A DNA stretch of 64,000 nt from Eledone cirrhosa (lineage: Eukaryota): positions 17,670,001 to 17,734,000 of the forward strand of contig OZ024742.1 of assembly GCA_964016885.1 (NCBI GenBank). Reading direction: 5' to 3'. The notes under the pieces were generated by a model. That model worked only from the letters and a program-made list of their open reading frames with translations. It ran no database searches and was not told the origin of the DNA. Below are positions 11,592-63,562 of this stretch, in pieces (within the stretch, counting starts at the first letter, position 1; every line of letters starts with the position of its first letter). A program made the translations under genes and the position numbers.

Positions 11592-11594
<3 letters not shown>

Positions 11595-18822: not shown

Positions 18823-18830
18823 TATATATA

Positions 18831-19025
18831 TAATGAAGGAAGTGTGGTAAGGAACCAGGTGGACCATAACGCACCAGAGTACTCGATACTTTGGGTAGTA
18901 GAGTGGGTAATAGGAAAAGTTTAGGACCCCGACGGCAGAGCTCAAGCCGTTTCGACGGCTATTTCTGGACAGAAATAGCTGTCGAAACGGCTTGAGCTCT
19001 GCCGTCGGGGTCCTGAACCTTTTCT

Positions 19026-25105: not shown

Positions 25106-25119
25106 TGGATTCAAGATAC

Positions 25120-25154
<35 letters not shown>

Positions 25155-25164
25155 CAGATAGATA

Positions 25165-25999
25165 CATTTCTTTATTAGCCACAAGGGCACAAAAGAAGGG
25201 GACAAATACAAATGGGGAGTTTACATACAGGTATATGAAAATAAAACTATTAATAAAATAACAAATAACAATTGAAATCCCCAATAGGGGGGAGGCGTTA
25301 CACAGGGGTTGTACACACCCCGAAAAAATGTACAACCCTCATCTCCAGGAGCACAAAGAGTGAGTACCCCCCCTCCTCTCTTTCTCTTTTTCCTCAACCT
25401 ACAGGATTATATAGAGAGAAGGCCCAACCACTCCGGCTATCTTTGCCACATTCACCCACCTTTTATAAACTTTGCTGTGGTACAGAACCTCTCTCTCCAT
25501 CCTGATTCTTCTTCCAAAATGATATTTGAAAAAATGAATCAGTTGTTCGCCGGAGAGAAAGGTGTCTGACCTCAGCCCTTTTAACCTCGTCCACCATACA
25601 ACCTATTTCGCCATAGCTATCACACAAAGGAAAACCGCCTCTCCTTCGTTTTTGAAGGAGGGTGGCGGTTTGATCATGACAATTGACTCGGTGGTCAACC
25701 GGATTGGTCCCACCCGCGACAATAGTCGTTCTACATAGCCCCACAGGTCGGTAACGCCCGGGCAGTGTATGAATGCGTGCGCGACGGTTTCTTCGTCTCG
25801 CACGCATCTCGGACAGATCTTTTTCGAAGAGTCGCTGCCCGTGCGCCCATATCTGTAGAGCTTGTCTCGAACGGTCAGCGAGACGAGTCGTGGGAAGGCT
25901 CGCCTCACGAACGGGGCCCACACCGGTTGTCCGGTGAGGAATACGTGGAGGTGCCGCAGCCTGAGTGTGTGTTTGAACATCGTCAGGCACGGCATCCCC
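25165..25999 (-). mobile_element. Short 3' fragment of a Tx1/L1-like LINE embedded in (GATA)n
   Basis: LRLRHL...VRDKLYR...CPRC..H..C, with an internal deletion near 25875; (GATA)n at 25115-25163 and 26000-26066. Confidence 0.9.
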
Positions 26000-26583: not shown

Positions 26584-26680
<97 letters not shown>

Positions 26681-26682
<2 letters not shown>

Positions 26683-26738
26683 AACCAGTAAGACCCCGAC
26701 AGCTGAGCTCAAGCCGTTTCGACGGCTAATTCTGGACT
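26681..26738 (-). mobile_element. 58-bp fragment of the 38.0-38.1 kb ribozyme element between TA tracts
   Basis: Reverse complement of 38060-38117 (GTCCAGAATTAGCCGTCGAAACGGC...GTCGGGGTCTTAC). Confidence 0.8.
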
Positions 26739-26759
26739 ATATATATATATATATATATA

Positions 26760-28430: not shown

Positions 28431-28477
28431 AAATGACCGGTTTCGATGGGTCTGCAAAAGCCATCTTTTCAAATGTT
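28431..28477 (-). ncRNA. Hammerhead ribozyme, U3-A8 variant (inverted copy)
   Basis: Reverse complement of 32714-32761. Confidence 0.6.
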
Positions 28478-29275: not shown

Positions 29276-29392
29276 ATACATACACCCACACACATAGAGA
29301 AATGGCCTCCAAATATATATATATATACATACATACACATATATTTTTTCCATAATATAAGAAGTTAGGACAGTGAAATTAAAATACAAGTC

Positions 29393-31525
29393 ATGGAATA
29401 CTGCCGAAAGCTGCGACTAACGGAATTCTTCCACAACGACACCAACACTGAAGACGAATCACTGCTTAGAAATAAAAGCAATTTCTGCCCACAAAGGGGA
29501 AGAAATAAAGCACTGGACACGTACTGCGAACACATCACCAACTTTCCCTATGAAAAAATTACAAATAAACACACGAAATCAAACCTATCTACACACGAAT
29601 GGGAAGAATTATTCACACTTAGAAACAACCCTGAGATAACCATCAAAGAAGCCGATAAAGGCAGTACTGTTGTCATTATGAATACGGACTACTATAGGAC
29701 CCTCGCACTTAACATTTTAGAAAACAACACATACTATGAAAAAACAGAAAACTACAAACACACCAAAACAATGGGGAACCTTTTGACCTTACTGAATAAA
29801 TACCGCAACAGCTTAACCACAAAAGAGTTTAACTATATAAGCCACTTCAAATGCAATACAAGCTCTTTTTACGGCTTACCAAAACTCCACAAATGTAAAC
29901 CCATAAACGATGCATGTGACACCTCAACCAACAATTACATTGAACTAACACCACCAGAAGACCTAAATCTCAGGCCAATTATAGCAGGCCCTACATGTGA
30001 AACCCACAGACTTAGCAACTTTCTGGACATCCTACTGAAACCCTTTCTACAACATATACAGAGCTACATACGAGATGACCTTGACATGCTGAAGCACCTC
30101 CCTAAAACAGTAAGTGCAAATACAATTCTTGTCTCTTTGACGTAATAAACCTCTACACAAACATACCCCACAACTATGGAATAACAGCAGTCCAATACTG
30201 GCTTAACACACACCCATCAGAAATACCGACACGCATCAACAAAGATTTTATCACTGACGGACTCCGCTTTATCCTACAAAATAACTACTTCACATTCAAT
30301 GGTTCAACATACAGACAAGTATCAGGTACTGCAATGGGCACGAAAGTAGCACCCACATATGCCAACCTAGTCATGGGATTCCATGAACAACAAATATACA
30401 GTCAGTCCCTTCTCTTATTTGGAGACTCTTTCCACACACACCTCAAAGCCAATTGGAAAAGATATCTAGACGACTGCTTTATCCTATGGCAAGAAGACAT
30501 GAACTCACTTACTATGTTTAAAAACATGATAAACAACATAGATAATAACATACAATTCACAATGGAATCCAATCCCAAGGAATTAGCCTTCTTGGATATT
30601 CTCATCTCTGTAATAGACGGGAAATTAGATACAGATATATTCTATAAACCCACAGATTCCAAGCAATACCTCTTTTTCACATCAAGTCACCCAAAACATA
30701 AAAAAACTTAACATTCCTTACAATTTGGCCAAACGTATATGTACCATAGTATCAGATCCACCTAAACGGGAGCAAAGACTAAAGGAACTAAAAGACACCC
30801 TTATCTTAAGAGCCTTTCCACTTGAAATAATCAACAATGGAATAGACAGGGCAAAACACCTAAATCCCCATCAACTTAACAATCCAAAACAGAAAACCAC
30901 ACTCAACACCCTGCCATATGTATCCACTTTCAACCCCAGAAATACCGAAATGTTTGATCACCTACACAAAAACCTCCCCATCCTACTTAAAGATGTAAAA
31001 ATGAAGTCTATTCTTGAAACACACAAGATCCTTAAAAGTAAAAGACAACCCAAATCACTAAAACGCATTCTCACTGGACCAAATATACCCAAACCAATCC
31101 TCAACCCTACAGTTACCAAATGTGGTAGAACAAACTGTGGAACGTGTCTCTACCTCACTGAAGGACAAAAATTTACATTTAAAGATGGCCAAACATTTAC
31201 AGTAAAAAACAATTTCACCTGCAACTCGGAGAACTTGATTTACGCAATAACTTGCTGTGGGTGCAAACGCAACTACATAGGACAGACGGGCACCTCATTA
31301 CGCAAAAGAATGACCATCCACCGCAAACAAATCCGGGACGCTAACACAAGAAAAATCCCCTTGAGCAGCCATATTGCGAACTGCGCAGGAATGACACTAC
31401 CCAACTTTAAAATCTTCCCCTTCTACAAGTGCTCAGATTCGTTCACACAGCAACAAAGAATAAACAAAGAAAATCTATTCCTTAACAAATTTAAACCAAA
31501 ACTAAACGGGTTATCACCCCAGTAG
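29393..31525 (+). pseudogene. Penelope-like RT + GIY-YIG polyprotein, 5'-truncated, two frameshifts
   Basis: IKEADKGS, FYGLPKLHK, LRPII, AMGTKVAPTYANL, RYLDD, YKPTD, CxxxxCxxC linker, LIYAITC..YIGQT, PKLN; frameshifts near 30137 and 30705. Confidence 0.95.
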
Positions 31526-32713: not shown

Positions 32714-32761
32714 AACATTTGAAAAGATGGCTTTTGCAGACCCATCGAAACCGGTCATTTT
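32714..32761 (+). ncRNA. Minimal hammerhead ribozyme, U3-A8 variant, in Penelope pLTR
   Basis: AACAT-TTGAAAA-GATGG(cttttgcagac)CCATC-GAAA-CCGG-TC^ATTTT; palindromic ACCGGT stem III as in dimer-acting PLE hammerheads; stem I 4/5 paired. Confidence 0.62.
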
Positions 32762-33796: not shown

Positions 33797-36060
33797 TTAG
33801 GGAGAAGTATTTAGACGGGGTCCGTATTTGTTAATAAAGTGAGATTCCTTGATGATGCGCTGGGTGTGGGTGGCATTATCTATAAATTTGTAGAGGGGAA
33901 AGATTCTGAAGTTGGGATGATTTTGGGCAGCACATGTATCAATGTGTTCACACTCAGTGGTATTTTCCTGTATTCCCGTATTTTAATTTGGGATCTAGAG
34001 ACAGTCATGCGTTGGCGTAGGCTGTTTTTGGTCTGGCCTATGTATTGTTCTCGACAACCCGAGCAAGTTAATACATATATTAGATTTTCTGATGCGCATG
34101 TGAAATTGTGTTTTACTATAAAACGTTGTCCTTCTTTGAAATAGAATTCCGAACCCTCTATTAGGTTGATGCATATTCCACAGTTGGGTCTATCGCATTT
34201 TTTTACTGTGGGTTTCGTTGTTGTGGTTGGCAGTACTTTGGCATGTGTTAGGATGTTTTTCATTGATTTAGATTGTCTTTTGCTCTTTATGATATCGTGG
34301 TGTGTTCGTAGGATTTGGTTCATTCTATGGTCCTTTTTTAACACAGGGATGTTCTGGAGGATGGTGTCAAAGGCCTCATTGTTGAGGGGGTTGTGTGTGG
34401 AGATGTATGGAAGAGCTTTTAGTTTCGGTTGATTTACTTTAGGGTGTCTAAGGTTCTGGGTACTGAGTTTTAGGGCACGTTGGATTCCATTGTCAATTAG
34501 TGATGCAAGGTAGTCCCTGCCTATGAGTGTGTCCTTTAGTTCTTGTAGCCGTAAGTAGCAGATGTTTTTATTGGAGACTATAGTACAGACTCTCTTGGCT
34601 AAGTTGTAGGGAATATTAATTTTAACGTTTCTAGGGTGGCAAGAGTTGAAAGGAAGATATTGCTTGGAGTCTGTGGGCTTGTAGTATATGTCTGTTTCTA
34701 TTTTTTGTTATGAATCTTAATGAGGATGTCGAGGAAGTGGAGTTGTTGATGGCTCTATTCCATCGTGAAGTTAATATTCGTGTTGAGCCCATTTATAAGG
34801 GTGTGAAATTCTTTAAGTTTCTCGATGTTTTCGTGCCAAAGGATGAAGCAGTCATCTAGATATCGCTTCCAGTTCCTTTCTATGTGTAAGTGGAGAGTGT
34901 TTTCAAATTTGTTTAGTACTTTAGTGTAGAGGGTGATTTCCAGGTATCCCATGACTAGGTTGGCATATGTGGGGGCTGTTTTCGTTCCTATAGCGGTCCC
35001 AGATTTCTGCCTGTAGGGTTTGTTATTGAAAACGAAGTAATTGTTCTCCAAGATAAATTTGAGTCCCTCTATCACGAATTCTTTTTTGATGCGTTGTGGG
35101 AGTTCATTGTGGTAATTATCCAGCCAGAATTGGATAGCTTCTATTCCTAGGTTGTGTGGGATGTTGGAGTATAGGTTGACTACATCGAACGTCACTAGTA
35201 GGGTTTGTTCAGAAAGGGGCATATTAGGGAGGTGATTGAGCATATCTAGGTCGTCCCTTATATAGCTTTTGATGTGTTTGAGAAAAGGCTTGAGAAGGAT
35301 ATCAATGAAGTTGCTAAGGCGGTGGGTTTCGCAAGCGGGGCCTGCTATTATAGGTCTTAATTTGAGATCATTGGGTGAGGGGACATTGATGACTATGTCT
35401 GTGGCTTCCTTGCATGCCTTACTTATTAATTCGCTTTTATGTACTTTAGGGATACCGTAGAAAAGGCTGGATTTACTTGTGAAGTCTGTGATGAAGCTGA
35501 ATTCCTTGTTAGTGAGTCCTTCTTTGTATTGGTTGATCAGAGGTTTTAGGTTTCTCATAATTTTCTGTTGATTGTAGTGTTCAGCCTTTTCGCAGTATGT
35601 TTCGTTTTCCAAAGTGGAGAGCGCTAAGTTGCTATAGAATTCTGTCTCTATTAGGACTACTGTACTCCCTTTATCAGCCTCTTTAATTGTAATGGTTCTG
35701 TCGGTTTTTAATCTATTTAATTCTTCCCATTCTTTCTTGTTGAGGTTTGGCTTGTGTTTTTGTCTGTGCAAGTGTTGGTAAGGGAAGTTTGTGATGTGTT
35801 CACAGAATTAGTCCAGGATTTTATTTCTACCTTTTGATGGGGTGTAATTGCTTCTATTTCTGGCTAATGATTCATCCTCATTGTACTGGTCGAATAGTTC
35901 TTCACTGAGTCGTAACTTTCTACAGAAGTCTGTGATGTCTTCCTTCATTTCATAGTAGTTAGGACGTAGTGGGGTCGGTGTGAATTTATGTCCTTTGGAG
36001 AGTAAGTTGATAAGGTTGGGTGTTGGTTCTGCACTAGTTAGATTGATAATTTTTATTACT
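33797..36060 (-). pseudogene. Second Penelope-like RT + GIY-YIG ORF (different subfamily, disrupted)
   Basis: LLSKGHKFTPTP, IKEADKGS, FYGIPKVHK, FDVVNLYSNIP, RYLDD, CDRPNCGIC, LIYVLTC..YIGQT, PRLN; stops and frameshifts; similar composition extends to ~36700. Confidence 0.93.
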
Positions 36061-36871
36061 CTCGGTTTCTCCTCCCTGTCTTGTGTTATTTTGTTTGCCT
36101 GTATCTGTGTGCTGTGTCTAAAAAATGGTTGGGGTAGAGGGGTTGTTTGCTGATGTTAAGTGGTCTCCTGTGTTTGTTATATTCCTTGTTGTTGTAAAAT
36201 GTGGTTCGGGTTCGTGGTTGTAGATTGAATGGGGTGTTACTGTATTGCGAGTATGGATGTGTGTTTCTATGTGCCATGTTGGATTGTGGTGTTATAGGTG
36301 GCCTACGTTGTTGGTTGTATCGTGTGGTGTGGGTTTGTTGTGTATTGTGGAAGCGAGAGTTGAGACAATGGAAATTACCTTGCTGTCCCCTTGAAGCGGG
36401 GAAGTTGTTACATCTATCATGGTGGTGGTATCTTTTCCCTATGTTTGACGATGAGGCATCCGCGTAGTAGTTGAGTGATTTGGTATGGTGTCTCCTTGAA
36501 GGGGGAAAGTTGTAAATGTCATTCTGGGGGAGATGATTTCTAGGGTTTTTGTTCCTTCTTATGGTAGCGAGGTTGGGAAGTTCATCTTCGGTGTGGTGCT
36601 TCCTTCTTCTTTTGTTAGTGGCTGGGGGGTTTGCGAAGTTGTTGTGCGATTCAGTTATGGGTTTTCCTTTTTTATGAACGGGTTATTTGGTCGTTTTGAC
36701 TGCTGCTATTTATAGTGGTAGTAGACTGACCTCCCTGCCTCTGCTTCTATCTTTACACACGGCACTGGACAGAATTGTTTCCACATCATTCATTCTCATC
36801 TCGGGAACAATTTTGAATAGCGCCAGTTCGTAATTTGAACTCGGGAATTTTATATTCTCCGAGTGAAAAGA

Positions 36872-36958
36872 ACCTTCTGACGAGAGTTTATCTTTTCAAT
36901 GGAAGGCCGCAAGGACTGTCCATTTAATTTTGAGACTCGAAACAGATTCGGTAAAGGT
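36872..36958 (+). ncRNA. Type-I hammerhead ribozyme with long stem II
   Basis: ACCTT-CTGACGA-GAGTTT...(AATGGA..CC-GCAA-GG..TCCATT)...AGACTC-GAAA-CAGATTCG-GTA^AAGGT; perfect 5-bp stem I, intact core. Confidence 0.82.
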
Positions 36959-37167
36959 AACCATAGTGAGTACAGTGACTTTTTTGAAATTTAATTTGAA
37001 ACTTTTTCTTATTTGCTAAATCTTGATTATATATGTTCTGGCTCGTTAATTTATTAACCTGCTATTGAACCACATTGGCATATGGTTGGACAATACATGT
37101 GTCCCTGGACCCTTTTTGCGTGTAGGGATATATACTTTATTATATATATATATATACATATATATAA

Positions 37168-37445
37168 GTGGTTGCTGGCCCTGTGTTTGGGGTAGAAACC
37201 TTTATTCTTCTTTCTCCATTTTTTTTTTGAGGGGGGGGGGGGGGTCCTGTATTAATTTTCCGTTCTTTACTTTTACTTCGTACGATCTTTCATGTAGCTT
37301 GTATAAGACTTTTTGTTTCGTGGCGGTACCCTTAGAGTTAGCACTAGTATTTTTTTGCGGGACCCTGAATTATATTCTCGTACTAGTTTACTTTCTTGCA
37401 CTGGGTGGTTGCTGGCCCTGTGATTGGGGTAGAAACCTTTATTAT
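37168..37445 (+). repeat. 40-bp direct repeat pair
   Basis: GTGGTTGCTGGCCCTGTG(T/A)TTGGGGTAGAAACCTTTATT at ~37168 and ~37405. Confidence 0.8.
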
Positions 37446-38010
37446 TTTCGTGGTAGTCTCTTTAGTATTCTGCCCCCCCCCCCCCCCTTTGTTGACCCGT
37501 CACCGTACGATACACGCACTTATACCTCGTATAAGGGTCCCTTTATTTCCGTCCCACCTAGTTTATTTCTATTATTATTATTTATTTTTTTATTCTACAT
37601 TATATATATATATATATTTCTTTTTTTTTATTTATTTATCTATTCTTTTATTCACTTATTTGTTTATTTATTTATTTATGTATTTCTTTAGCCTAGCAAT
37701 AGCGAGAGACTTAAGTCTTAGTAACCAGATTTTGCTTTTTTTTTTCTCTCTCAGTACCTTTTATAGTTTTACCTTCATCGTTCTACTTACCGTTTCGACC
37801 TCCTCCCCCTCCCCCTTTTCCTCTTTGACCTCACACCCAGCTGTAGCTGGCACTACCAACGCATGAATGGGTCTACTCCACCTCCTCTCCCTTTTTCTCC
37901 TACCGGCAGGTTTAGCTACCCCTTCCCCCACCAACTTGCCATCACAGATTTACTACTAACTTGTGATGTGATCAATCCTGGTGATTATCTCTTTGACCAT
38001 ATATGGAATT

Positions 38011-38104
38011 ACCCCTTGATAAGTTCGGCTATTTAAATACCAGAATAAATTTTCATTCAGTACAGAATTAGCCGTCGAAACGGCTTGAGCTCAGCCGTCG
38101 GGGT
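38011..38104 (+). ncRNA. Type-I hammerhead ribozyme, U3-A8 variant, long stem II, stable stem III
   Basis: ACCCC-TTGATAA-GTTCGGCTA...TAGCCGTC-GAAA-CGGC(ttgagctca)GCCG-TC^GGGGT; perfect stems I and III, GUC triplet. Confidence 0.82.
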
Positions 38105-38419
38105 CTTACTTGTTCCTATTACCCACTCTACTACCCTAAGTATTGAGTACTTTGGTGCGTTATGGTCCACCTGGTTCCTTACCACTTTTCCTTCGTTATA
38201 TATATATATATATATATATACATATACATATGCATATATATATATATATATGACTGATTTTTGCGTTTCGTTTCGCCTTTTCTATATATATATATATATA
38301 TATTTCGTTTCGCCTTTTCTACCCGCCGAATGGCGATAGCTGCCGGTATTTTTGCATAGCTACGGCTTTCTAAATAGTTGTTTACAAACATACCGTATTT
38401 CTTTAGAAATACGAAATTC

Positions 38420-38467
<48 letters not shown>

Positions 38468-38468
<1 letters not shown>

Positions 38469-38524
38469 GGATCTAGCTATCGAAACGGCTGGAAATGAGC
38501 CGTCGGGGTCCTGACTCTTTTCCT
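38468..38524 (+). mobile_element. Diverged 3'-half copy of the 38011 hammerhead between TA tracts
   Basis: TAGCTATC-GAAA-CGGCT(ggaaatg)AGCCG-TC-GGGGTC: stem III kept, loop changed. Confidence 0.7.
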
Positions 38525-38640
38525 ATATATATACCCAGGGAGTATAACTTGGAGTTACTGTAGGTTCACCCGGGTGAGCACTCGATGTTTAGGTTCACTT
38601 CAGTGTCGAGGTGTAGAGCTAGACAGAGTGTATTACAAGA

Positions 38641-39226: not shown

Positions 39227-40683
39227 AGGATATTGGATTTGTTTATCTTAGTAAGTCATTGTTTTATGGAGAAGGAAAAAGACGGAGAGAGAGAGAAAAA
39301 CCGAGAGAGAGAAAAGTTGAGAAAGAAAAGGAGATATAAAGAAAGAAAAAAAGAAAAAAGAAAAAGGAGAGAGAGATATCAAAACACCAGACAGAAAGTA
39401 AAAATCAAGAGAGAGAAATATAGAGATAGAGAGAGGGGGAGAAAACGAAAACCTTAAGTCATGTCATATTAAGTTATGTTAACAATTGAGATTAAATGAA
39501 TAAATAAAATTAGAAATATTAATATTCATGAATGGAATATATATATATAATATGAGAAATTAATCATTGTTTAACTATAATTAGATATTTAGTTTAAGAG
39601 TTGAGATCAATATATTAAAAATTGGAATTTAAACATTAAGAAATCTATATATTGCTAGAGAAAATTACCTATCATATAACACGTACACACACGCAAAAAA
39701 TACACATAAATATATATATATATATATACACACTCAGAAGATACACATTATATCCACTGCCGTATATAATATATACATACAAAGCATAAATGATTTTTTT
39801 TATTATTAATGTTATACACCCTTGCGTTATTAAATAAAACATTTTAATATATATATATAAAAATATATAGGATTAGCTTTCATGCATTTAAGGCTGTTAA
39901 ATTATGCCTATCTGCAATCAAATTGTATGGGTACACATGTACATGTACACACACAATTCTTACATATACATATACACACATGTGTGTGTATCACCCGATT
40001 GGTAGACACGCGTCACTCATGCATATATACAGACAGACATATATTCATAAAAATGCATATAACACATGTATATGTATGTTAATACACACATATACATACA
40101 TACTCGTATAGAGATAAGTATACATCAATATATCACATAGTATAATTGAGTACATAAAATACAAAAGGATTATATTTTGGAAATATAATTATATCAATAT
40201 AACTTAAAAACAAAAGAATTCTAAAATATTAAAATATTAAAATATTTTAAAATATTATAGAATATTTTAAGTTAAAATAATATGTTTAATAGATTTAGTA
40301 TAGAAATTTATCTTACGTATATTTTACTCAAGATATCGAAAGGATAAACGTTCGAAAATTATGAGAAGCTATCAGAATAAAAAACAAACCTAATAAAAAA
40401 TAAAAAATAATAAATAATAATAATAATAATAATAATAATGTTTTCTTTATTAACCACAAGGGTTTACATAAAGTAGACATTAAGGACAGTACAGGACAAT
40501 ACAGGACGGTACAAATGGGCATTTCTGCGTGTAAAAAAAACAGAGGTTGAAATAAAATAACAAAGAAAAATTCCCCAATAGGGCGGAGACTTCCAAGGGA
40601 CATTTGTGGAGAAAGCCCATTAAAAGACCACAGTGGCCCTGACCACCAGGGCAAGTGCCCTCTCCCAGTTTTCCACCTTTAAT

Positions 40684-43600
40684 TTACAGACACATACTCA
40701 GAGAAGGCCCATTCATTCGGGCCATACTTGCTTCTCTCACCCATCTTTCAACAAAATGCTGGGAAGAGAGCACTTCCCTCTCTACCCTGATTTTCCTTTT
40801 CAAATGAAATTTGAAAAAGTTAATCAGGGCATCACCGAAGAGGTAAGTGCTCGTCTTCAGCCCTTTCAAACGTGTCCACCATACTATCTCTTTCGCCATG
40901 GCCACCAGACAGATAAAAACTGCCTGCCCTTCCAGGCTAAAGGAAGGGGGCGGGGCAATCCTCACGATGGACTCAGCTGATATCTGGATCCGTCCTACAC
41001 GTGACAGCAGGTGTTCGACATAAACCCACAAGTCAGCAATGCTCGGACACTGGACGAGTGCGTGCAGGACGGTTTCGTCGCCCTGCGCGCATCTCGGACA
41101 TGCCCGGCTGACGGCACCTCCATGCCTGTAGAGTTTATCCCGAACTGGCAAAGCTCCTCGGTAGCACTGCCAGGCCAGGGATTTCTGGAAGTTGTCCATA
41201 GGCCCCGGCCCGAAAGTCCTTCCGAAGAGATTGGCTAGTTGATTTTCGTCGACGCCTAGAGTTTCTCCAAGTACGTCGTCGCTCTTCCCCTCCACTAATC
41301 CCCTATAGAACGCCAAGGTGGAGTTTCCACCGATCACATTGCCCGATTGGTCGAGGGCTGTGAGCGCCTGAAGACATTCCAGTCTCCAAGCGCTCCCTCT
41401 CGGTCTTCGCTTGACCCAGGACTGCAGCTCCGTCAAGGAGACGAGCTGGGGAAAAACGTGTCTAGCAAACGGCGACCACACCTGATCACCGTCGAGGAAG
41501 AGGTGGAGATGTCGTAGCCTGAGCGCGTGTCTGCGCATCATCAGCCACGGCATGCCCAGCCCTCCACGTAGCGGGTGTTGACAGCAGATGGACCGCCTGA
41601 CCATCGGAGCGCGTCCCTTCCACAAGAAGCGAAAGAGCAAACGCTCCAGCGCAGTCAGGCGGGGCTTAGGACAAGGTACGACGGTCAGGCGGTAGTAGAT
41701 GACGGATGCGATGTACGCATTCGCCACCTCCTCTCGACCTTTCAGGGATAGCTTCCTCTCGGCCCATTTCTGGGTGAGAGAAGCCACCCTGCTCGTCACC
41801 TCATCCCAGTTTTTGTCAGTCTGGAGGTCTGGACCGAACCAGACCCCTAGCAATTTAACCGGTCCGTCCGTCCAGCGTCCGACGATGCTGTTGGACGGCA
41901 TGGACCTGCCTCTCCAGGTGCCGAGCTGCAGGCCCACTGACTTTTCCTGGTTGATCATTGCTCCTGTCACCGCTTCGTATTCTCTTAGTGTAGTGCCGAT
42001 CACCTCGATGTGTTTGGCGTTCGACACCGCTACGGTGACATCGTCGGCATATGCTGACACGGATCTTCCGCATCCTAGTTCGCGCGGGACCCCCCTCAAC
42101 GTCTCCAGTTTGTGCAGTAATGGCTCGAGAGTCAATACGTACAATAGGGACGAGAGGGGACATCCTTGGCGGACCGAGCGCATGATGTTGAACGGTTCCG
42201 AAAGGTGACCGTTCACTCTCACTACAGAGCAGATGTCGCTGTGCATGGCAGCGATCCAGCCTCTGAAGACGGGCCCAAAGCCAGCCGCCCTCAGGACTGC
42301 CGCTAGGTAACGATGGTCGACCCTATCGAAGGCTTTCGACTGATCTAAATTGATCAAAGACCCACCCGTGCCAGGTTCCCTAGCTACCCTCTCTACGATG
42401 TATCGCATGAGGTGGAGGTTGTCGTGGATGGATCTGTCGGGAATGGCGCATGTCTGTGCCTCTCCCACCAGACCACCAACAACAAGCGCCAACCTCTTTG
42501 CTAGCACCTTGGCCAAAATCTTGAACTCTGCGTTTAGCAGAGTTATGGGCCTAAAATTATCTATGTTATCCCCCTTGTTCGGATCCTTTCTCAGCAGCGC
42601 CACCACTCCTCGGCTCACAGAGCTGGGAATTCTCCCGTTCTGTTGCCAGTTGCAGTAGACGTCCGCCAAGAGGCCTCCGAACAAGTTTGGCATTTGTACG
42701 TAAAGTTCATAGGGCAGACCATCCAAACCAGGCGATTAACCCCTTGTGCAACTAGTCATTGCATCCCGTACTTCAGCGGTTGTTATCGGCTTTTCGCAAC
42801 ACTCCGCCTCAGTGGCCGAAAGCCACGGCAGTCCGTCGAGGTAGACACTAAAGTCCATCCCTCGATCCGGCCCGCCACTGCCCCCGAACAGTTGAGCGAA
42901 GTGTCGCTGAAAAGCTTCACACATTTGCCCGGGATCGAGTAGCATGCGCCCGTCGTGGTCCACCAAAGACCGGATCGTGGGTTTGTTGCCACGACGCGCC
43001 TCCGCCACTCGGGCCCATTGAACGGCTTTCGTCCCCTCGTGTCTGAGAGCACGCACCCTAGCTCTGACAACGCAGCCTTCGTGCTTTGCATTGAAGAATT
43101 GGTCAAGGGCCGATTTCGCCGCAAGTACGTCGGTCGCGATGCCTTTGCTAAGCGCCTCATCTAATTTTCTAACTAATTCTCCCTCGGCTCTATTTTTCTC
43201 TATTGCTAAAGTCTTACTAAACCTAATGGACTCTATTCTAATTGATCTTTTCAGAGCAAACCACCACTTGTTGTTGACGATGGACCCCGTCAACGCCCGC
43301 TTAACTAGTTCGCTAATACGGTCTCTGTAGGCCTTGCGCGCTGGTAAGGACGCGTTTAGCTTCCAGTAGCCGGGTCCTCGTCTATGAAGCCTATCTAAGT
43401 CAAGCACACAGATCACGAATTTGTGGTCCGTGAAGCTGACTATCTTGAATTGTGGACAGCCTATGCTAGACCTATCTATTTCCCTACAAAATACTCTATC
43501 TAGATATGATCTGGATGACCCTATGCGATTTGTCCAAGTCCACATTGGTACATTCGGGAAATCCATTTGGTACCTGTCAGACAGTTCAAAACGTCTGAGC

Positions 43601-44103
43601 AGGTTGGTGAGACTCTTGCACCCTCCTTCCCTATCCACTAATCCCACACAATCCCAGCGTGCATCTAAGATCCCGTTCCAGTCGCCCACTAACACTAAAG
43701 AGCGGGACGTTCCAAGAAAGGTCTCCAGACGCCGGAAGAAATCAGGCCGCCCTGCTCCTGTCGGGGCATAGACGGCCACTAACCTGAAAGCTTGCCCGTC
43801 TCCGCTGGTCACGTCCAGCACCACCAACTTACCTTCTGGGTCCAGGAAGATGGCCCGTATGGCAAGATCCAAACCTCTCCGAAAGAGCACAGAAACTCCT
43901 CCCCCCGATCCCGGACGGCTGAGAGATGCGTACACATCGTAGCCGCCGAAGATCGGTGCGAAAGCCTGTGCTTCGGAGATTCTGGTCTCGCTGATGGCCA
44001 CTACATCTATGTTTAGTGACCTGGGGTCGTTGAGCAGGTGGCCCTGCTTCCATGACGACCCCAAGCCACGCGCATTTATGCTGCCTATTCTGAGCGAGGT
44101 CAT
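40684..44103 (-). pseudogene. ORF2 (APE endonuclease, RT, C-terminal zinc finger) with one premature stop
   Basis: NARGL, GDWN, LDR, TDH; QGCPLS, YADD; CPRC..H..C; in-frame TAA at 42736-42738 where units B and C encode Lys. Confidence 0.93.
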
Positions 44104-44137
44104 GTTGAAAAGGAGTGGAAAAGATGGGAAAGACCAC

Positions 44138-46091
44138 TTACCTTACTTCTCGTAGGGGAAGGACGCTTTTTCCATCCTTTTCACTGCTTGTGGCTTCCTC
44201 AGGAAGGATGTCCTTATAAATCCTCCTGGAGAGTGCTTGTCGGAAGTCTCCGATGTCTTTGGGGAATTTTTGTTTTAGTGTCATGTACGTTTTCTGTGTG
44301 ATGCGAGTGATTTGTATGTGTGGAGGTGGTGTGAATTTTGGGGTTGTTGTGTAGTCTTTTTCTGTGATGCTGGTGTTGTGTTGGATGTAGTGTAATAATT
44401 GCTTGTTGTTCAAATTTAATGCTGTGTAGTGTGTATCGTTTTGGTTGTTTTGTTTTGTTTGCGTTTGTTGTGGGTTTGTTTCTGTTTCGCATTTTGGTGA
44501 CTTTTGTGGTGTAGGTGATGGTGGTTTTGGGGTTAATGATGGTGATGGTGTTGGTGATGCTGGCATATCTGTCCTAACTTTTTTGTTTGTTAATTTATTT
44601 GTTTCCCTCTGTATTTTGTTTTTGGAGTGGGAAGGAAGAGAATTTTTTCTTTTTTGGTTTCTTTTTTTTTCCTGATACCGTTTCCCACTCCTCGTTGTCA
44701 CAATCTGTTTCCAGTTGTGATAGGCCGGGGAGTGGAAAATCCTTCACATGCGTTAGTTTTGGTTGTGGCGTGGTGGATGGTGTAGGCGCTGGTGCTAGTT
44801 CTGAAGCGTTGGGTGGTGGTGGTGTTGGTTTTGCTGGTGGTGGTGGTGTTGGTTTTGCTACTGTTGCTGGGGTTGTTGCTGTTATAGTTGCTTCTGTTGT
44901 TGCTGCTACAGTTGTTGCTGCCATCTCTGCTACTGGTGGTGTTGATGGTTGTGTCACTGGGGTGGGTAGGAGAGGTGGCCTCAATCTTTTAGCCTGAGGG
45001 CAGAAAGCCCTTAGGTGGGTTCCTTCACCACAAACGACACACCTAGGTCTTCTGCCCTCGACAATTACCGTGAGGTGGCTGCCGTCAGTGAGGTCTATTA
45101 CCTCTGGGATCTCCTCAATGCTTTTTTGGTCCGCTTGGATCAGGAGCTCCATCCCAGATCCGGACCAGTTCTCCTGCTTTTCTTTTTCTATTGTTATTAT
45201 TTTTGTGTTGGCTTCGATGCCGGCGAGGACGACCGCTATTAGCCAGGGAATTTCGATGGCCGGTGGAACGTGGGTCACCCTGATCTTTACGAGTCTCTGG
45301 CCACAATAGCTTGGGACGAGTGTGAAGTCGTCACTTCTTAATGGGCCATGGAGTGTTCTCTAGCCTCCTCTGGTGTTTCAAAGAACACGTCCACGGTTCC
45401 ATACTTTTGCCCACGTCTGATGTGGGTTTTTTCTTGCCCACACATGTCCCAAAGCTTTTTGGATTTGGGACTCGGATGCCCGTTCCACTCGGCGCGATTT
45501 TACATTTATTGTTCGATACGACACAGTGCATAGGCGCCGATGCTCCATGTTATTAGGTGGCGGGGTGAGGCTGACCCTGTACGCATCTTTCTTTACCATT
45601 TGTTTAGCATTTTCTAAATCCTCCTGAGTTACTGTAAATGCTTCGAACTGTTTTGCTACTCTGGCAAAACTGAGGGTGGTTTTTTTAATGTCATTGTTGT
45701 TGTTGTTGTTGCTATCGTTGCTTTTGTTATTATTAATTTTAGTTTCAGCTGTGGTGGTGGTGACGTCAGTGAAATTCTGTTTGGGAGAGTCCATTTTGGA
45801 AAATATTTCGACATCACGAGTTGATTTATTTTTTCCTTTTGTTTCTGTTGTCGCGGTGGTGGTGGTGGTGGTGGTGGTGGTGGTGGTGGTGGTTGTCGCG
45901 GTGGCTTTAACACCTGCAGTCATTGGTAATGGCGGGAAATGAATGTCTGCCTGAGACAAATTTAAAATATTGCTAGTGCTTAAATTGTGTGTGTTGGCAG
46001 ACGTAATATCATTTACAATGGTGGTGTCGGTGTGAGGTGTTAATTTGTGAGAAGGGCTTTCAGCTGCTTGGTGCAGTGCTGAATTAGCCAT
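44138..46091 (-). pseudogene. ORF1 (CCHC zinc knuckle, Pro/Thr-rich), frameshifted
   Basis: CVVCGEGTHLRAFC; frameshifts in T-homopolymers near 45430 and 44660. Confidence 0.85.
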
Positions 46092-46568
46092 TTTTTTTTC
46101 AAAGAAATTTTTTGATAATCATAAAAGTTTAAATTTTGGGCACAAGGCCCCAATCTTTTTGGGTGTCCTTTTCGGAAAACGATGTATGTGCGCTTATATA
46201 TAGTTAACAATAAAAATTTTCCATAAATGGCAATTTTTAACAAACGGAAATAACAAACCTTTGCGGAGCTCACGATGATACGATTTACTACGTAGGTCGC
46301 CAATAATAATAATAATAATAATAATGTTTTCTTTATTAACCACAAGGGTTCATATAAAGTAGACATTAAGGACAGTACAGGACAATACAGGACGGTACAA
46401 ATGGGCATTTCTGCGTGTAAAAAAACAGAGGTTGAAATAAAATAACAAAGAAAAATTCCCCAATAGGGCGGAGACTTCCAAGGGACATTTGTGGAGAAAG
46501 CCCATTAAAAGACCACAGTGGCCCTGACCACCAGGGCAAGTGCCCTCTCCCAGTTTTCCACCTTTAAT

Positions 46569-49500
46569 TTACAGACACATACTCAGAGAAGGCCCATTCA
46601 TTCGGGCCATACTTGCTTCTCTCACCCATCTTTCAACAAAATGCTGGGAAGAGAGCACTTCCCTCTCTACCCTGATTTTCCTTTTCAAATGAAATTTGAA
46701 AAAGTTAATCAGGGCATCACCGAAGAGGTAAGTGCTCGTCTTCAGCCCTTTCAAACGTGTCCACCATACTATCTCTTTCGCCATGGCCACCAGACAGATA
46801 AAAACTGCCTGCCCTTCCAGGCTAAAGGAAGGGGGCGGGGCAATCCTCACGATGGACTCAGCTGATATCTGGATCCGTCCTACACGTGACAGCAGGTGTT
46901 CGACATAAACCCACAAGTCAGCAATGCTCGGACACTGGACGAGTGCGTGCAGGACGGTTTCGTCGCCCTACGCGCATCTCGGACATGCCCGGCTGACGGC
47001 ACCTCCATGCCTGTAGAGTTTATCCCGAACTGGCAAAGCTCCTCGGTAGCACTGCCAGGCCAGGGATTTCTGGAAGTTGTCCATAGGCCCCGGCCCGAAA
47101 GTCCTTCCGAAGAGATTGGCTAGTTGATTTTCGTCGACGCCTAGAGTTTCTCCAAGTACGTCGTCGCTCTTCCCCTCCACTAATCCCCTATAGAACGCCA
47201 AGGTGGAGTTTCCACCGATCACATTGCCCGATTGGTCGAGGGCTGTGAGAGCCTGAAGACATTCCAGTCTCCAAGCGCTCCCTCTCGGTCTTCGCTTGAC
47301 CCAGGACTGCAGCTCCGTCAAGGAGACGAGCTGGGGAAAAACGTGTCTAGCAAACGGCGACCACACCTGATCACCGTCGAGGAAGAGGTGGAGATGTCGT
47401 AGCCTGAGCGCGTGTCTGCGCATCATCAGCCACGGCATGCCCAGCCCTCCACGTAGCGGGTGTTGACAGCAGATGGACCGCCTGACCATCGGAGCGCGTC
47501 CCTTCCACAAGAAGCGAAAGAGCAAACGCTCCAGCGCAGTCAGGCGGGGCTTAGGACAAGGTACGACGGTCAGGCGGTAGTAGATGACGGATGCGATGTA
47601 CGCATTCGCCACCTCCGCTCGACCTTTCAGGGATAGCTTCCTCTCGGCCCATTTCTGGGTGAGAGAAGCCACCCTGCTCGTCACCTCGTCCAGTTTTTGT
47701 CCGTCTGGAGGTCTAGACCGAACCAGACCCCTAGCAATTTAACCGGTCCGTCCGTCCAGCGCCCGACGACGCTGTTGGACGGCATGGACCTGCCTCTCCA
47801 GGTGCCGAGCTGCAGGCCCACTGACTTTTCCTGGTTGATCATTGCTCCTGTCACCGCTTCGTATTCTCTTAGTGTAGTGCCGATCGCCTCGATGTGTTTG
47901 GCGTTCGACACCACTACGGTGACATCGTCGGCATATGCTGACACGGATCTTCCGCATCCTAGTTCGCGCGGGACCCCCCTCAACGTCTCCAGTTTGTGCA
48001 GTAATGGCTCGAGAGTCAAAACGTACAATAGGGACGAGAGGGGACATCCTTGGCGGACCGAGCGCATGATGTTGAACGGTTCCGAAAGGTGACCGTTCAC
48101 TCTCACTACAGAGCAGATGTCGCTGTGCATGGCAGCGATCCAGCCTCTGAAGACGGGCCCAAAGCCAGCCGCCCTCAGGACTGCCGTTAGGTAACGATGG
48201 TCGACCCTATCGAAGGCTTTCGACTGATCTAAATTGATCAAAGACCCACCCGTGCCAGGTTCCCTAGCTACCCTCTCTACGATGTATCGCATGAGGTGGA
48301 GGTTGTCGTGGATGGATCTGTCGGGAATGGCGCATGTCTGTGCCTCTCCCACCAGACCACCAACGACAAGCGCCAACCTCTTTGCTAGCACCTTGGCCAA
48401 AATCTTGAACTCTGTGTTTAGCAGAGTTATGGGCCTAAAATTATCTATGTTATCCCCCTTGTTCGGATCCTTTCTCAGCAGCGCCACCGCTCCTCTGCTC
48501 ACAGAGCTGGGAATTCTCCCGTTCTGTTGCCAGTTGCAGTAGACGTCCGCCAAGAGGCCTCCGAATAAGTTTGGCATTTGTACGTAAAGTTCATAGGGCA
48601 GACCATCCAAACCAGGCGATTTACCCCTTGTGCAACTAGTCATTGCATCCCGTACTTCAGCGGTTGTTATCGGCTTTTCGCAACACTCCGCCTCAGTGGC
48701 CGAAAGCCGCGGCAGTCCGTCGAGGTAGACACTAAAGTCCATCCCTCGATTCGGCCCGCCACTGCCCCCGAACAGTTGAGCGAAGTGTCGCTGAAAAGCT
48801 TCACACATTTGCCCGGGATCGAGTAGCATGCGCCCGTCGTGGTCCACCAAAGACCGGATCGTGGGTTTGTTGCCACGACGCGCCTCCGCCACTCGGGCCC
48901 ATTGAACGGCTTTCGTCCCCTCGTGTCTGAGAGCACGCACCCTAGCTCTGACAACGCAGCCTTCGTGCTTTGCATTGAAGAATTGGTCAAGGGCCGATTT
49001 CGCCGCAAGTACGTCGGTCGCGATGCCTTTGCTAAGCGCCTCATCTAATTTTCTAACTAATTCTCCCTCGGCTCTATTTTTCTCTATTGCTAAAGTCTTA
49101 CTAAACCTAATGGACTCTATTCTAATTGATCTTTTCAGAGCAAACCACCACTTGTTGTTGACGATGGACCCCGTCAACGCCCGCTTAACTAGTTCGCTAA
49201 TACGGTCTCTGTAGGCCTTGCGCGCTGGTAAGGACGCGTTTAGCTTCCAGTAGCCGGGTCCTCGTCTATGAAGCCTATCTAAGTCAAGCACACAGATCAC
49301 GAATTTGTGGTCCGTGAAGCTGACTATCTTGAATTGTGGACAGCCTATGCTAGACCTATCTATTTCCCTACAAAATACTCTATCTAGATATGATCTGGAT
49401 GACCCTATGCGATTTGTCCAAGTCCACATTGGTTCATTCGGGAAATCCATTCGGTACCTGTCAGACAGTTCAAAACGTCTGAGCAGGTTGGTGAGACTCT

Positions 49501-49987
49501 TGCACCCTCCTTCCCTATCCACTAATCCCACACAATCCCAGCGTGCATCTAAGATCCCGTTCCAGTCGCCCACTAACACTAAAGAGCGGGACGTTCCAAG
49601 AAAGGTCTCCAGACGCCGGAAGAAATCAGGCCGCCCTGCTCCTGTCGGGGCATAGACGGCCACTAACCTGAAAGCTTGCCCGTCTCCGCTGGTCACGTCC
49701 AGCACCACCAACTTACCTTCTGGGTCCAGGAAGATGGCCCGTATGGCAAGATCCAAACCTCTCCGAAAAAGCACAGCAACTCCTCCTCCCGATCCCGGAC
49801 GGCTGGGAGATGCGTACACATCGTAGCCGCCGAAGATCGGTGCGAAAGCCTGTGTTTAGGAGATTCTGGTCTCGCTGATGGCCACTACATCTATGTTTAG
49901 TGACCTGAGGTCGTTGAGCAGGTGGCCCTGCTTCCATGACGACCCCAAGCCACGCGCATTTATGCTGCCTATTCTGAGTGAGGTCAT
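46569..49987 (-). pseudogene. ORF2 with two stops and a frameshift
   Basis: TAA near 49856, 1-nt deletion near 47690, TAG at 46968. Confidence 0.9.
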
Positions 49988-50021
49988 GTTGAAAAGGAGT
50001 GGAAAAGATGGGAAAGACCAC

Positions 50022-52019
50022 TTACCTTACTTCTCGTAGGGGAAGGACGGCTTTTCCATCCTTTTCACTGCTTGTGGCCTCCTCAGGAAGGATGTCCTTA
50101 TAAATCCTCCTGGAGAGTGCTTGTCGGAAGTCTCCGATGTCTTTGGAGAATTTTTGTTTTAGTGTCATGTACGTTTTCTGTGTGATGCGAGTGATTTGTA
50201 TGTGTGGAGGTGGTGTGAATTTTGGGGTTGTTGTGTAGTCTTTTTCTGTGATGCTGGTGTTGTGTTGGATGTAGTGTAATAATTACTTGTTGTTCAAATT
50301 TAATGCTGTGTAGTGTGTATCGTTTTGGTTGTTTTGTTTTGTTTGCGTTTGTTGTGGGTTTGTTTCTGTTTCGCATTTTGGTGACTTTTGTGGTGTAGGT
50401 GATGGTGGTGTTGGAGTTAATGATGGTGATGGTGTTGGTGTTTGGGTTGATGGGGTTGGTGATGCTGGTGTGGATGGTGGCATATCTGTCCTAACTTTTT
50501 TGTTTCTTAGTTTATTTGTTTCCCTCTGTATTTTGTTTTTGGAGGGGGAAGGAAGAGAATTTTTTTCTTTTTTGGTTTCTTTTTTTTTTCCGGATATCGT
50601 TTCCCACTCCTCGGCGTCACAATCTGTCTCCAGTTGTGATAGGCCGGGGAGTGGAAAATCCTCCACAGCCGTTAGTTTTGGTTGTGGTGTGGTGGATGGT
50701 GTAGGCGCTGGTGCTAGTTCTGAAGCGTTGGGTGGTGGTGGTGTTAGTTTTGCTGGTGGTGGTAGTGGTGTTGGTTTTGCTACTGTTGCTGGGGTTGTTG
50801 CTGTTATAGTTGCTTCTGTTGTTGCTGCTACAGTTGTTGCTGCCATCTCTGCTACTGGTGGTGTTGATGGTTGTGTCACTGGGGTGAGTAGGAGAGGTGG
50901 CCTCAATCTTTTAGCCTGAGGGCAGAAAGCCCTTAGGTGGGTTCCTTCACCACAAACGACACACCTAGGTCTTCTGCCCTCGACAATTACCGTGAGGTGG
51001 CTGCCGTCAGTGAGGTATATTACCTCTGGCATCTCCTCAATGCTTTTTTGGTCCGCTTGGATCAGGAGCTCCATCCCAGATCCGGACCAGTTTTCCTGCT
51101 TTTCTTTTGCTACTGCTATTATTTTCGTGTTGGCTTCGATGCCGGCGAGGACAGCCGCTATTAGCCAGGGAATTTCGATGGCCGGTGGAACGTGGGTCAC
51201 CCTGATCTTTACGAGTCTCTGGCCACAATAGCTTGGGACGAGTGTGAGGTCGTCACTTTTTAATGGGGCCATAGAGTGTTCTCTAGCCTCCTCTGGTGTT
51301 TCAAAGAACACATCCACGGTTCCATACTTTTGCCCACGTCTGACGTGGGTTTTTCTTGCCCACACATGTCCCAAAGCTTTTTGGATTTGGGACTCGGATG
51401 CCCGTTCCACTCGGCGCGATTTTACATTTATTGTTCTATACGACACGGTGCACAGGCGCCGATGCTCCATTTTATTAGGTGGGGGGGTGAGGCTGACCCT
51501 GTACCCATCTTTCTTTACCATTTGTTTGGCATTTTCTAAATCTTCTTGAGTTACCGTGAACGCTTCGAATTGTTTTGCTACGATGGCGAAACTGAGGGTC
51601 GGTTTTATAATGTCATTGTTGTTGTTGTTGCTATCGTTATTTGTGTTAATCTTAATTTTTGTTTCAGTTGTGGTGGTGGTGACGTCATTCGTCTTTGGTG
51701 CGGAAGAGTCCATTTTGCTTGATTTCATTTCGACATCACGAGTTAATTTATTTTTTTATTCTTTTGTTTCTGTTGTCGCGGTGGTGGTGGGGGTGGTGGT
51801 TGTCGCGGTGGTGGTGGTGGTGGTGGAGGCTTTAACACCTGCAGTCATTGGTAATGGCGGGAAATGAATGTCTGCCTGAGACAAATTTAAAATATTGCTA
51901 CTGCTTATATTTTTTTTTGTGTTGGCAAACGTAGTAACATTTACAATGGTGGTGTCGGTGTGAGGTGTTATTTTGTGAGGAAGGCTTTCAGCTGCTTCGT
52001 GCAGAGGGGAATTAGCCAT
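50022..52019 (-). pseudogene. ORF1, disrupted
   Basis: Same CCHC knuckle as unit A; break near 51756 and stop at 50283. Confidence 0.85.
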
Positions 52020-52227
52020 TTTTTTCAAAGAAATTTTTTTGGATAATAATAAAAGTTAAAATTTTGGGCACAAGGCCCCAATCTTTTTGGGTGTCCTTTT
52101 CGGAAAACAATGTATGTGTGCTTATAAACAGTTAACAATAAAATTTTCCATAAATGGCAATTTTAACAAACGGAAATAACAAACCTTTGCGGAGCTCACG
52201 ATGATACGATTTACTACGTAGGTCGCC

Positions 52228-52277
<50 letters not shown>

Positions 52278-55958: not shown

Positions 55959-55993
55959 GTTTAAAATAGAGTGGAAAAGATGGGAAAGACCAC

Positions 55994-62202: not shown

Positions 62203-62227
62203 AATAATAATAATAATAATAATAATA

Positions 62228-63060: not shown

Positions 63061-63077
63061 TAATAATAATAATAATA

Positions 63078-63525: not shown

Positions 63526-63562
<37 letters not shown>

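What the first reader, a model, noticed from the sequence alone, without database searches (positions are those of the whole stretch)
38011..38104. Hammerhead with U3-A8 core covariation and otherwise strong stems
Seen: core TTGATAA replaces CTGANGA, with perfect stem I (ACCCC/GGGGT), stem III (CGGC/GCCG) and a GUC site. The same double change appears in an unrelated sequence at 32719 (TTGAAAA) and possibly at 11803 (TTGACAA). Known: C3-G8 is a tertiary Watson-Crick pair that tolerates compensatory change. Inference: the variant is under selection here and would be missed by CUGANGA-only searches.
Basis: partly seen in the sequence, partly recalled or inferred. Interest (0 to 1): 0.75.

Follow-up and report, generated by a model that had tools for sequence, protein, structure and literature searches.

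The report
Retrotransposon hammerhead with swapped core pair
This is a real hammerhead-shaped RNA motif, likely a slow self-cutter, at the end of a broken Penelope-type jumping gene; its U-A core swap is already published, and the family also made over 1,600 copies while that pair was mismatched, so the pair is likely useful but not essential.

Summary
The motif is real and not decay. It is the type I hammerhead of a Hydra-clade Penelope-like element (PLE); the window holds only a 1-kb end fragment. U3-A8 is the family state (about 5,500 of 7,268 matches), and an older homologous family has C3-G8, so the double change did happen. U3-A8 hammerheads in PLEs are in print (2011, 2014). 'Otherwise strong stems' is wrong for stem II: a lone G-C pair, then a UU/U loop. 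Selection on the pair is weaker than claimed: 1,661 matches carry C3.A8 and a small subfamily carries U3.G8. A tree with both sites masked places the C3.A8 copies as a ladder between older and younger U3-A8 subfamilies, so the window's U3 is likely a restoration. Twelve other core positions never changed between subfamilies (0/12 versus 15/31 in loop II). 32719 is a credible U3-A8 minimal hammerhead of an unrelated, Neptune-like PLE (2,077 matches, poor stem I). 11803 lacks stem I and is not supported. Cleavage is untested. This scan reported the same family and its mismatch phase before, on other DNA of this genome.

The parts
37205..38251 (+). 5'-truncated 3' end of a Hydra-clade Penelope-like element (3' UTR / pseudo-LTR to 38119, then the tail), inserted at (TA)n; no ORF of this family in the window
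   Evidence: 88-96% identical to copies that follow an RT + GIY-YIG ORF on the same strand in L056-L063, L065; tblastn of that ORF against the window is empty; 107 of 285 fragments end at 38119
38011..38015 (+). stem I, 5' strand (ACCCC)
   Evidence: pairing probability 0.98 in the 103-nt fold, 0.58 and 0.30 in 300- and 450-nt contexts
38016..38022 (+). core strand U3 U4 G5 A6 U7 A8 A9; N7 is free across subfamilies (G 58, T 16, A 13, C 12 of 99)
38023..38076 (+). stem II: G10.1-C11.1, UU/U loop, 6 bp CGGCTA/TAGCCG, then a variable 35-40-nt insert
   Evidence: 4 of 11 pairs with a change on both sides across 10 representatives
38077..38098 (+). G12 A13 A14 and stem III (6 bp, 7-nt loop; near-perfect palindrome, can self-dimerise)
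   Evidence: cofold -30.7 kcal/mol against -7.1 for the hairpin
38099..38104 (+). C17 (predicted cut after 38099) and stem I 3' strand GGGGT
   Evidence: U16.1 in 99 of 99 and C17 in 97 of 99 copies
38463..38530 (+). short 3' stub of the related family C (3' half of the same hammerhead, no 5' core)
   Evidence: family C core is U3-A8 in 87 of the first 100 of 199 matches
18823..19025 (.). fold-back pair of 3' stubs of the same superfamily, turning inside the 3' arm of stem II
26678..26743 (-). 65-nt 3' stub of the same superfamily
32719..32756 (+). second U3-A8 motif: minimal hammerhead (5-bp stem II, palindromic ACCGGT stem III, 2-bp stem I) behind the RT + GIY-YIG ORFs at 29369-31525 (Neptune-like PLE, family B); inverted copy at 28435-28472 (-)
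   Evidence: 2,077 matches, 99 of first 100 TTGAAAA
11803..11831 (+). hammerhead-like remnant without stem I in the repeat of a third PLE family (D, RT 52% identical to family B); window copy is a fold-back palindrome

Best explanation
The sequence is the type I hammerhead motif in the pseudo-LTR of a Hydra-clade Penelope-like retroelement, with the known U3-A8 substitute for the C3-G8 core pair, and it likely works as a slow, non-essential self-cleaving ribozyme that would cut the element's sense RNA after the GUC at 38099. Shown: position, strand, family membership, copy numbers, conservation of 12 core positions between subfamilies, compensatory changes in stems I and II and at 3-8 against an older family. 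Inferred: transcripts from tandem or pLTR-started copies fold the three-way junction, alone or as a dimer through the palindromic stem III, and are cut at a low rate because G10.1-C11.1 is unstacked and stem II is too long for the usual loop I-loop II contact; cutting helps the element (the pair was restored) but is not required (the family kept multiplying while mismatched). The window copy itself is an ORF-less fragment with no shown function.
For: Sense orientation behind RT + GIY-YIG ORFs with Hydra motifs RWR, DKT, CxCX5C, CxxC, CxH and (TA)n targets. Core fixed between subfamily majorities: 0 of 12 positions vary against 15 of 31 in loop II, Fisher p = 0.003; with family C 0/12 against 21/31. 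N7 and 10.2 vary freely. 7 of 23 pairs change on both sides in 10 representatives; slid controls give 1-4 (relatedness inflates the shuffle test). An older homologous family reads CTGATGA in most copies that keep the core. The window copy folds into the three-way junction (0.8 kcal/mol above the MFE; rival hairpin probability 0.01). Natural U3-A8 is reported as active in vitro (Perreault 2011, passage); PLE hammerheads tested by Cervera and De la Pena cleave weakly and mostly as dimers. C3.A8 copies form a ladder between two U3-A8 groups, both bounding branches starred (99/92 and 100/96).
Against: No cleavage or RNA data. No pile-up of copy ends at the cut site: 1 start at 38100 and 2 at 38098 among 285 fragments, and no such loose end among the best-supported rows in genomic contigs. 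The full hammerhead fold including G10.1-C11.1 is only 7% of the predicted ensemble in the window copy and 0.4-2% in the A3, A4 and A5 representatives. The 3' half of the motif lies in the last 60 nt of the element and could be conserved for reverse-transcriptase binding rather than catalysis. One back-mutation at position 3 can be chance. The tree root rests on copy divergence and on family C, not on a well-supported outgroup.
Confidence: 0.6

Rival explanations
1. The motif is a catalytically dead descendant of a hammerhead; the fold is kept as a structural signal (3'-end recognition by the reverse transcriptase, or part of the internal promoter), and U3-A8 is a neutral leftover.
For: 1,661 C3.A8 matches and a U3.G8 subfamily spread; weak stem II junction and a rival GAA-tetraloop hairpin that dominates in A3 and A5 (probability 0.64 and 0.81); no ends at the cut site; Craig et al. 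note that hammerhead-less Naiads proliferate well.
Against: U4, G5, A6, A9 and G10.1 lie 55-60 nt upstream across a freely changing loop and are still fixed in all subfamilies and in family C; position 3 returned to the pairing base; the youngest subfamily also gained A10.2-U11.2, which raises the predicted hammerhead share to 47%.
Confidence: 0.22
2. The ribozyme is active and needed; C3.A8 is tolerated in this context (for example a protonated A.C wobble or support from a dimer), so all subfamilies cleave.
For: All other core positions are conserved through the mismatch phase; tolerance of core changes is ribozyme-specific (PMC3884650 passages; PMC3088659 passages).
Against: A8 and C3 together remove the Watson-Crick pair; a large rate loss for 3-8 mismatches is recalled from Przybilski and Hammann 2007 and Nelson and Uhlenbeck 2008, which I could not open. 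No compensated C3-G8 subfamily arose from the 1,661 C3.A8 copies: only about 9 scattered C3-G8 copies with this stem II among the first 100 of 122 G8 matches.
Confidence: 0.15
3. Two independent post-insertion transitions in a CUGANGA family, or a chance match.
For: Such decay exists in this genome: in an abundant C3-G8 family there are 58 U3.G8, 32 C3.A8 and 1 U3-A8 matches.
Against: Family consensus is TTGANAA; 0 of 60 shuffles give the descriptor.
Confidence: 0.01

Closest known systems
U3-A8 minimal hammerheads of Schistosoma mansoni Cercyon PLEs (Cervera and De la Pena 2014, PMC4209133; parts 1-3 of 4 of the text read)
   Same: Type I hammerhead in a PLE pseudo-LTR, U3-A8 in place of C3-G8 (about 1,300 hits there), short stem I, palindromic stem III region, G10.1-C11.1.
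   Different: Here stem III is a stable 6-bp hairpin, stem II carries a UU/U loop and a 35-40-nt insert, and there is no extra nucleotide between 9 and 10.1.
Hammerheads of Hydra-clade PLEs (Craig et al. 2021, PMC8557442; passages and supplement File S1/S2 read)
   Same: Same element clade by protein motifs and (TA)n target; hammerhead close to the 3' end; stem III longer than in minimal hammerheads.
   Different: All 26 Hydra rows of File S2, Hydra-1_Obim included, have a CTGA core and loop 2 of at most 10 nt; none has U3-A8 or a long stem II.
Natural U3-A8 core variants (Perreault et al. 2011, PMC3088659; passages read)
   Same: Same covariation at 3-8, stated to be active in vitro and first seen in nature there; weak stem II also reported.
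   Different: Those weak-stem examples are braced by pseudoknots; I found no such brace here (inspection only).
Metazoan non-LTR retrozymes (bioRxiv 10.64898/2026.07.22.740005, part 1 of 5 read; PMC7229834, listing only)
   Same: Type I hammerheads derived from PLE pseudo-LTRs; this genome has a 316-bp tandem family with U3-A8 (L099) and a 469-bp one with C3-G8.
   Different: The finding belongs to a protein-coding PLE family, not to a tandem retrozyme.

Membership tests
Hammerhead ribozyme (type I) | Three helices around the core in type I order | tested here: met
   compensatory changes in stems I and II
Hammerhead ribozyme (type I) | U4 G5 A6 N7, A9, G12 A13 A14, A15.1-U16.1, H17 | tested here: met
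   96-99 of 99 copies at each site except G12 (92, CpG)
Hammerhead ribozyme (type I) | Watson-Crick pair between positions 3 and 8 | tested here: met
   U3-A8 in the window copy and about 75% of 7,268 matches; not met in 1,661 C3.A8 matches
Hammerhead ribozyme (type I) | Stem II closed at the core by a stacked G10.1-C11.1 | tested here: inconclusive
   pair present but followed by a UU/U loop; predicted probability 0.10
Hammerhead ribozyme (type I) | Loop I - loop II tertiary contact of fast hammerheads | not tested
   stem II is extended by a variable insert; no contact was recognised by eye, no covariation test run
Hammerhead ribozyme (type I) | Site-specific self-cleavage after H17 | not testable with these tools
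   no RNA run listed; no genomic pile-up at the cut site
Rfam hammerhead families | Match to an Rfam covariance model | tested here: not met
   no hammerhead family among 129 matches at E <= 5; the canonical motif at 16924 was missed too, so the test is insensitive
Penelope-like element, Hydra clade | RT followed by C-terminal GIY-YIG-type endonuclease, pseudo-LTRs, inverted 5'-truncated copies, tail | tested here: met
   ORFs and direct/inverted repeats in L056-L063, L065; Pfam gave no family for two of these ORFs, so the call rests on motifs
Penelope-like element, Hydra clade | RWK, DKT, CxCX5C linker, CxxC and CxH around the endonuclease E/N, no CCHH | tested here: met
   RWR and SDKT in L057; CNCPDRSSC, CNLCSEE, CKH in L056 against the definition; RWR differs from RWK by one conservative change; absence of CCHH judged by eye
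Penelope-like element, Hydra clade | Insertion into (TA)n | tested here: met
   copies end at CCTAT followed by TA repeats
Penelope-like element, Hydra clade | Placement in an RT phylogeny with reference Hydra proteins | not tested
   reference proteins were seen only as supplement excerpts
PLE minimal hammerhead (32719) | Palindromic 15.2-16.2/loop 3, G10.1-C11.1, pLTR location, sense strand | tested here: met
PLE minimal hammerhead (32719) | Helix I of 4-5 bp | tested here: not met
   2 contiguous pairs; a 2-bp helix I is reported for Drosophila virilis Penelope
PLE minimal hammerhead (11803) | Helix I, G10.1-C11.1, palindromic stem III | tested here: not met
   0-bp stem I, G-U at 10.1-11.1, AGGT not palindromic

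The most novel reading that the evidence does not exclude
One retroelement lineage records a full cycle of its ribozyme's catalytic pair: C3-G8 in an old family, U3-A8 after it, a U3.G8 side branch, a long C3.A8 phase with over 1,600 insertions across four successive loop haplotypes, and then restoration to U3-A8 followed by repair of stem II in the youngest subfamily. If C3.A8 is nearly inactive, Penelope-like elements can transpose without self-cleavage yet are pulled back to it, which gives a natural allelic series for the open question of what PLE hammerheads are for.
Probability: 0.35. Interest if true: 0.6.

Novelty: new variant of a known kind. Interest (0 to 1): 0.33.

Why it matters
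The finding as written adds a known variant: U3-A8 hammerheads in Penelope-like elements were reported in 2014. Two things keep some value. First, annotation: about 5,500 family-A and 2,077 family-B motifs in this genome escape CUGANGA searches, so hammerhead counts and 'no hammerhead' calls for PLE families are biased. Second, the role of hammerheads in PLE transposition is stated to be unclear (Craig et al. 2021), and this family supplies natural paired and mismatched cores in near-identical backgrounds that can be assayed directly.

Tried and rejected
Rfam scan: no hammerhead match, only low-complexity miRNA noise. RNA evidence: no RNA holder listed; contigs of a second organism covered only the 3' half, so no cross-species state of positions 3 and 8. 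Fossil cut marks: no pile-up of 5' starts at 38100; starts gather at 38055-38066 and are mostly fold-back turns; the sample is biased towards copies with a whole core. Within-family covariation in a C3-G8 family: only 1 double change among 59 U3 matches, as expected from decay. U3.G8 as the intermediate between C3-G8 and U3-A8: not shown; family C, which is older, is U3-A8 in 87 of 100 and the old-family root is unstable. Reading 11803 as type III or long-range type I: only a 200-nt-range chance pairing. Linking the motif to the PLE ORFs at 33880-36682: they are a different element on the other strand; family copies stop matching at 37205. Pfam did not recognise the Hydra-type ORFs. Papers not held: Przybilski and Hammann 2007, Lunse 2017, Martick and Scott 2006, Nelson and Uhlenbeck 2008; the supplement of Cervera 2014 was not opened and Lunse 2017 may hold further U3-A8 or long-stem examples. 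Searches for a published mismatched PLE hammerhead subfamily or for G8A/C3U kinetics found nothing in the held library; that library lacks most subscription papers.

Full report
OBSERVATION. The window reads ACCCC TTGATAA G TT CGGCTA ...insert... TAGCCG T C GAA ACGGCT TGAGCTC AGCCGT C GGGGT at 38011-38104. This is a type I hammerhead layout with U3 (38016) and A8 (38021), a 5-bp stem I, a 6-bp stem III and GUC at 38097-38099. The descriptor occurs once in window 10301-64000 and in 0 of 60 shuffles. Stem II is the weak point: G10.1-C11.1 is followed by a UU/U loop, probability 0.10, and the complete hammerhead fold is 7% of the predicted ensemble, although the three-way junction itself is favoured and the rival GAA-tetraloop hairpin is not (0.01). 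Stem III with its loop is a near-perfect palindrome that self-dimerises at -30.7 kcal/mol. Rfam gave no hammerhead match in the window.

WHAT IT BELONGS TO. The genome is 3.0 Gb; a cephalopod is my guess from the repeat content, not a result. All 40 scored matches to the motif were 99-100% identical. In 9 of 10 longer regions fetched, the motif lies on the same strand as an RT + GIY-YIG-type ORF, in direct or inverted terminal repeats (L064 had none). The ORF has RWR, DKT, CxCX5C, CxxC and CxH, the motifs that define the Hydra clade, and copies end at (TA)n, 107 of 285 fragments at 38119, 20 nt behind the predicted cut. The window holds only the last 1 kb, 37205-38251, with no ORF of this family. 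The lead to the Hydra clade came from earlier scan notes and was checked here.

IS U3-A8 THE FAMILY STATE? Yes. With exact flanks there are 262 matches, and 98 of the first 100 listed read TTGATAA. The wider superfamily has 7,268 matches against 6 in the reversed control. Of these 1,661 are C3.A8 and 122 have G8 (including fold-back artefacts), which leaves about 5,500 U3-A8. With both core strands left free (6,330 matches; 99 of the first 100 recovered) the states are U3-A8 80, C3.A8 17, U3.G8 2, C3-G8 0. N7 and 10.2 vary freely; U4, G5, A6, A9, A13, A14, A15.1, U16.1 and C17 are kept in 96-99 of 99, G12 in 92 (CpG). The related family C, about 19% diverged from its own majority in a G8-enriched sample, is U3-A8 in 87 of the first 100 of 199 matches. 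A still older homologous family reads CTGATGA, has an unbulged stem II and GCCC/GGGC in stem I; its first five copies were found by a G8-restricted search, and most further copies with an intact core, found by similarity, agree. So the double change is one real event between homologous families. On 10 representatives 7 of 23 pairs change on both sides, against 1-4 for slid controls; relatedness and decay limit this test.

IS IT UNDER SELECTION? The core is. Between seven subfamily majorities 0 of 12 catalytic positions change against 15 of 31 in loop II (p = 0.003), and 0 of 12 against 21 of 31 with family C (in the old family 10.1 is often A). The 3-8 pair is held more loosely. C3.A8 is not scattered decay: it sits on four successive loop haplotypes (listing) and in both repeats of single insertions. 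A second subfamily has U3.G8 in 21 of 23 matches and A8 in none. For comparison, decay in an abundant C3-G8 family gives 58, 32 and 1 matches for the two single and the double change. A tree of 86 copies (141 extracted, 55 dropped as truncated upstream; positions 3 and 8 masked; four long-branch rows are probably chimeric) shows the C3.A8 copies as a ladder between an older group (A4 U3-A8 and U3.G8) and a younger U3-A8 group that holds the window copy, with both bounding branches starred. Divergence from group majorities falls in the same order: 7.7% and 7.3%, 3.5%, then 2.0% for the window's group and 0.4% for the youngest; two small U3-A8 groups at 3.5% and 4.3% overlap the C3.A8 value. The simplest reading is U3-A8, then C3.A8, then U3-A8 again. 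The root is inferred from age and from family C; no AU test was run.

THE OTHER TWO SITES. 32719 lies behind the RT and GIY-YIG ORFs at 29369-31525, with an inverted copy at 28472. It has TTGAAAA, a 5-bp stem II closed by G-C and the palindromic ACCGGT stem III typical of dimer-type hammerheads, but only 2 pairs in stem I. It has 2,077 matches, 99 of the first 100 identical in the core. Its element type is far from family A (RT 24% identical for the related family D), so U3-A8 arose or was kept independently. 11803 is in the repeat of family D, a PLE whose RT is 52% identical to family B; it has no stem I, G-U at 10.1-11.1 and no palindrome. It may be a remnant homologous to the family-B motif but fails as a hammerhead. 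Genome-wide, a short-hammerhead pattern gives 13,370 matches against 1,518 control; of the first 100, by my count 67 belong to two C3-G8 families, 21 are well-stemmed U3-A8 (family B, a 316-bp tandem family, one single) and 12 are unclear.

MECHANISM. Shown: a conserved hammerhead architecture on the sense strand near the element's 3' end. From established knowledge: C3-G8 is a tertiary Watson-Crick pair (PMC3884650 passages), U3-A8 is active in vitro and occurs in nature (PMC3088659 passages), and PLE hammerheads cleave weakly, mostly as dimers, and are proposed to process precursor RNA (PMC4209133). Inferred: this motif cuts slowly after 38099, and cutting is helpful but dispensable. Against: no ends at the cut site (1 of 285 at 38100), no RNA data, and misfolding predicted for several subfamilies. 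That 3-8 mismatches strongly slow cleavage is recalled; the primary papers were not held.

COMPARISON AND NOVELTY. Cervera and De la Pena 2014 report U3-A8 in PLE hammerheads with about 1,300 hits in Schistosoma mansoni, so the headline is known. The 26 Hydra rows of Craig et al. File S2 all have a CTGA core and short loop 2, so U3-A8 with a long stem II in a Hydra family is a variant not listed there. I found no paper on a PLE subfamily spreading with a mismatched core, within a library that lacks most subscription papers. The scan has already noted this family, its long stem II and its mismatch phase at other places of this genome; those notes are not independent support.

VERDICT. Observation partly confirmed, interpretation partly supported, a new variant of a known kind, interest 0.33.

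Noticed in passing
window 16885-16929 (-): Canonical C3-G8 minimal-type hammerhead (5-bp stem I, 6-bp stem II with the extra nucleotide, A17) about 150 nt behind a GIY-YIG-like ORF at 17073-17471; missed by Rfam.
   Followed up: partly
window 18823-19025, 26678-26743; many loci: Short stubs and fold-backs of the family start or turn at the equivalent of 38055-38066, inside the 3' arm of stem II, 55-65 nt from the element end.
   Followed up: partly
window 11590-12013: Fold-back palindrome of family D whose centre lies 3 nt before the TTGACAA motif; the same turn point recurs in several other loci, though the query selected for it.
   Followed up: partly
L099 (G000:C1:6519946-6521556) and L100: 316-bp tandem repeat with a well-formed U3-A8 type I hammerhead, retrozyme-like; a 469-bp tandem family (L101) has C3-G8.
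   Followed up: partly
L115 and relatives (youngest subfamily): A10.2 pairs with U11.2 and a G-U wobble weakens the second AGCCGT copy; the predicted hammerhead share rises to 47% against 7% in the window copy.
   Followed up: partly
family C: A small G7-G8 branch within family C includes both TTGAGGA and CTGAGGA copies, a possible return to C3-G8.
   Followed up: no
window 40400-58300 (-): Three head-to-tail copies, about 5.9 kb each, of a non-LTR retrotransposon with APE-RT ORF2 (one 1,195-aa frame intact) separated by (AAT)n; older relatives at 22900-25700.
   Followed up: no
window 58400-63550 (+): Non-LTR element with RT and a C-terminal restriction-like endonuclease motif (label recalled), followed by repeated 3' ends of 465 bp.
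   Followed up: no
window 1-10270: 56-bp satellite array, about 180 copies.
   Followed up: no
window 33880-37100 (-): A further, frameshifted Neptune-like PLE next to the finding, unrelated to it; no hammerhead was detected there by my short-hammerhead scan.
   Followed up: partly
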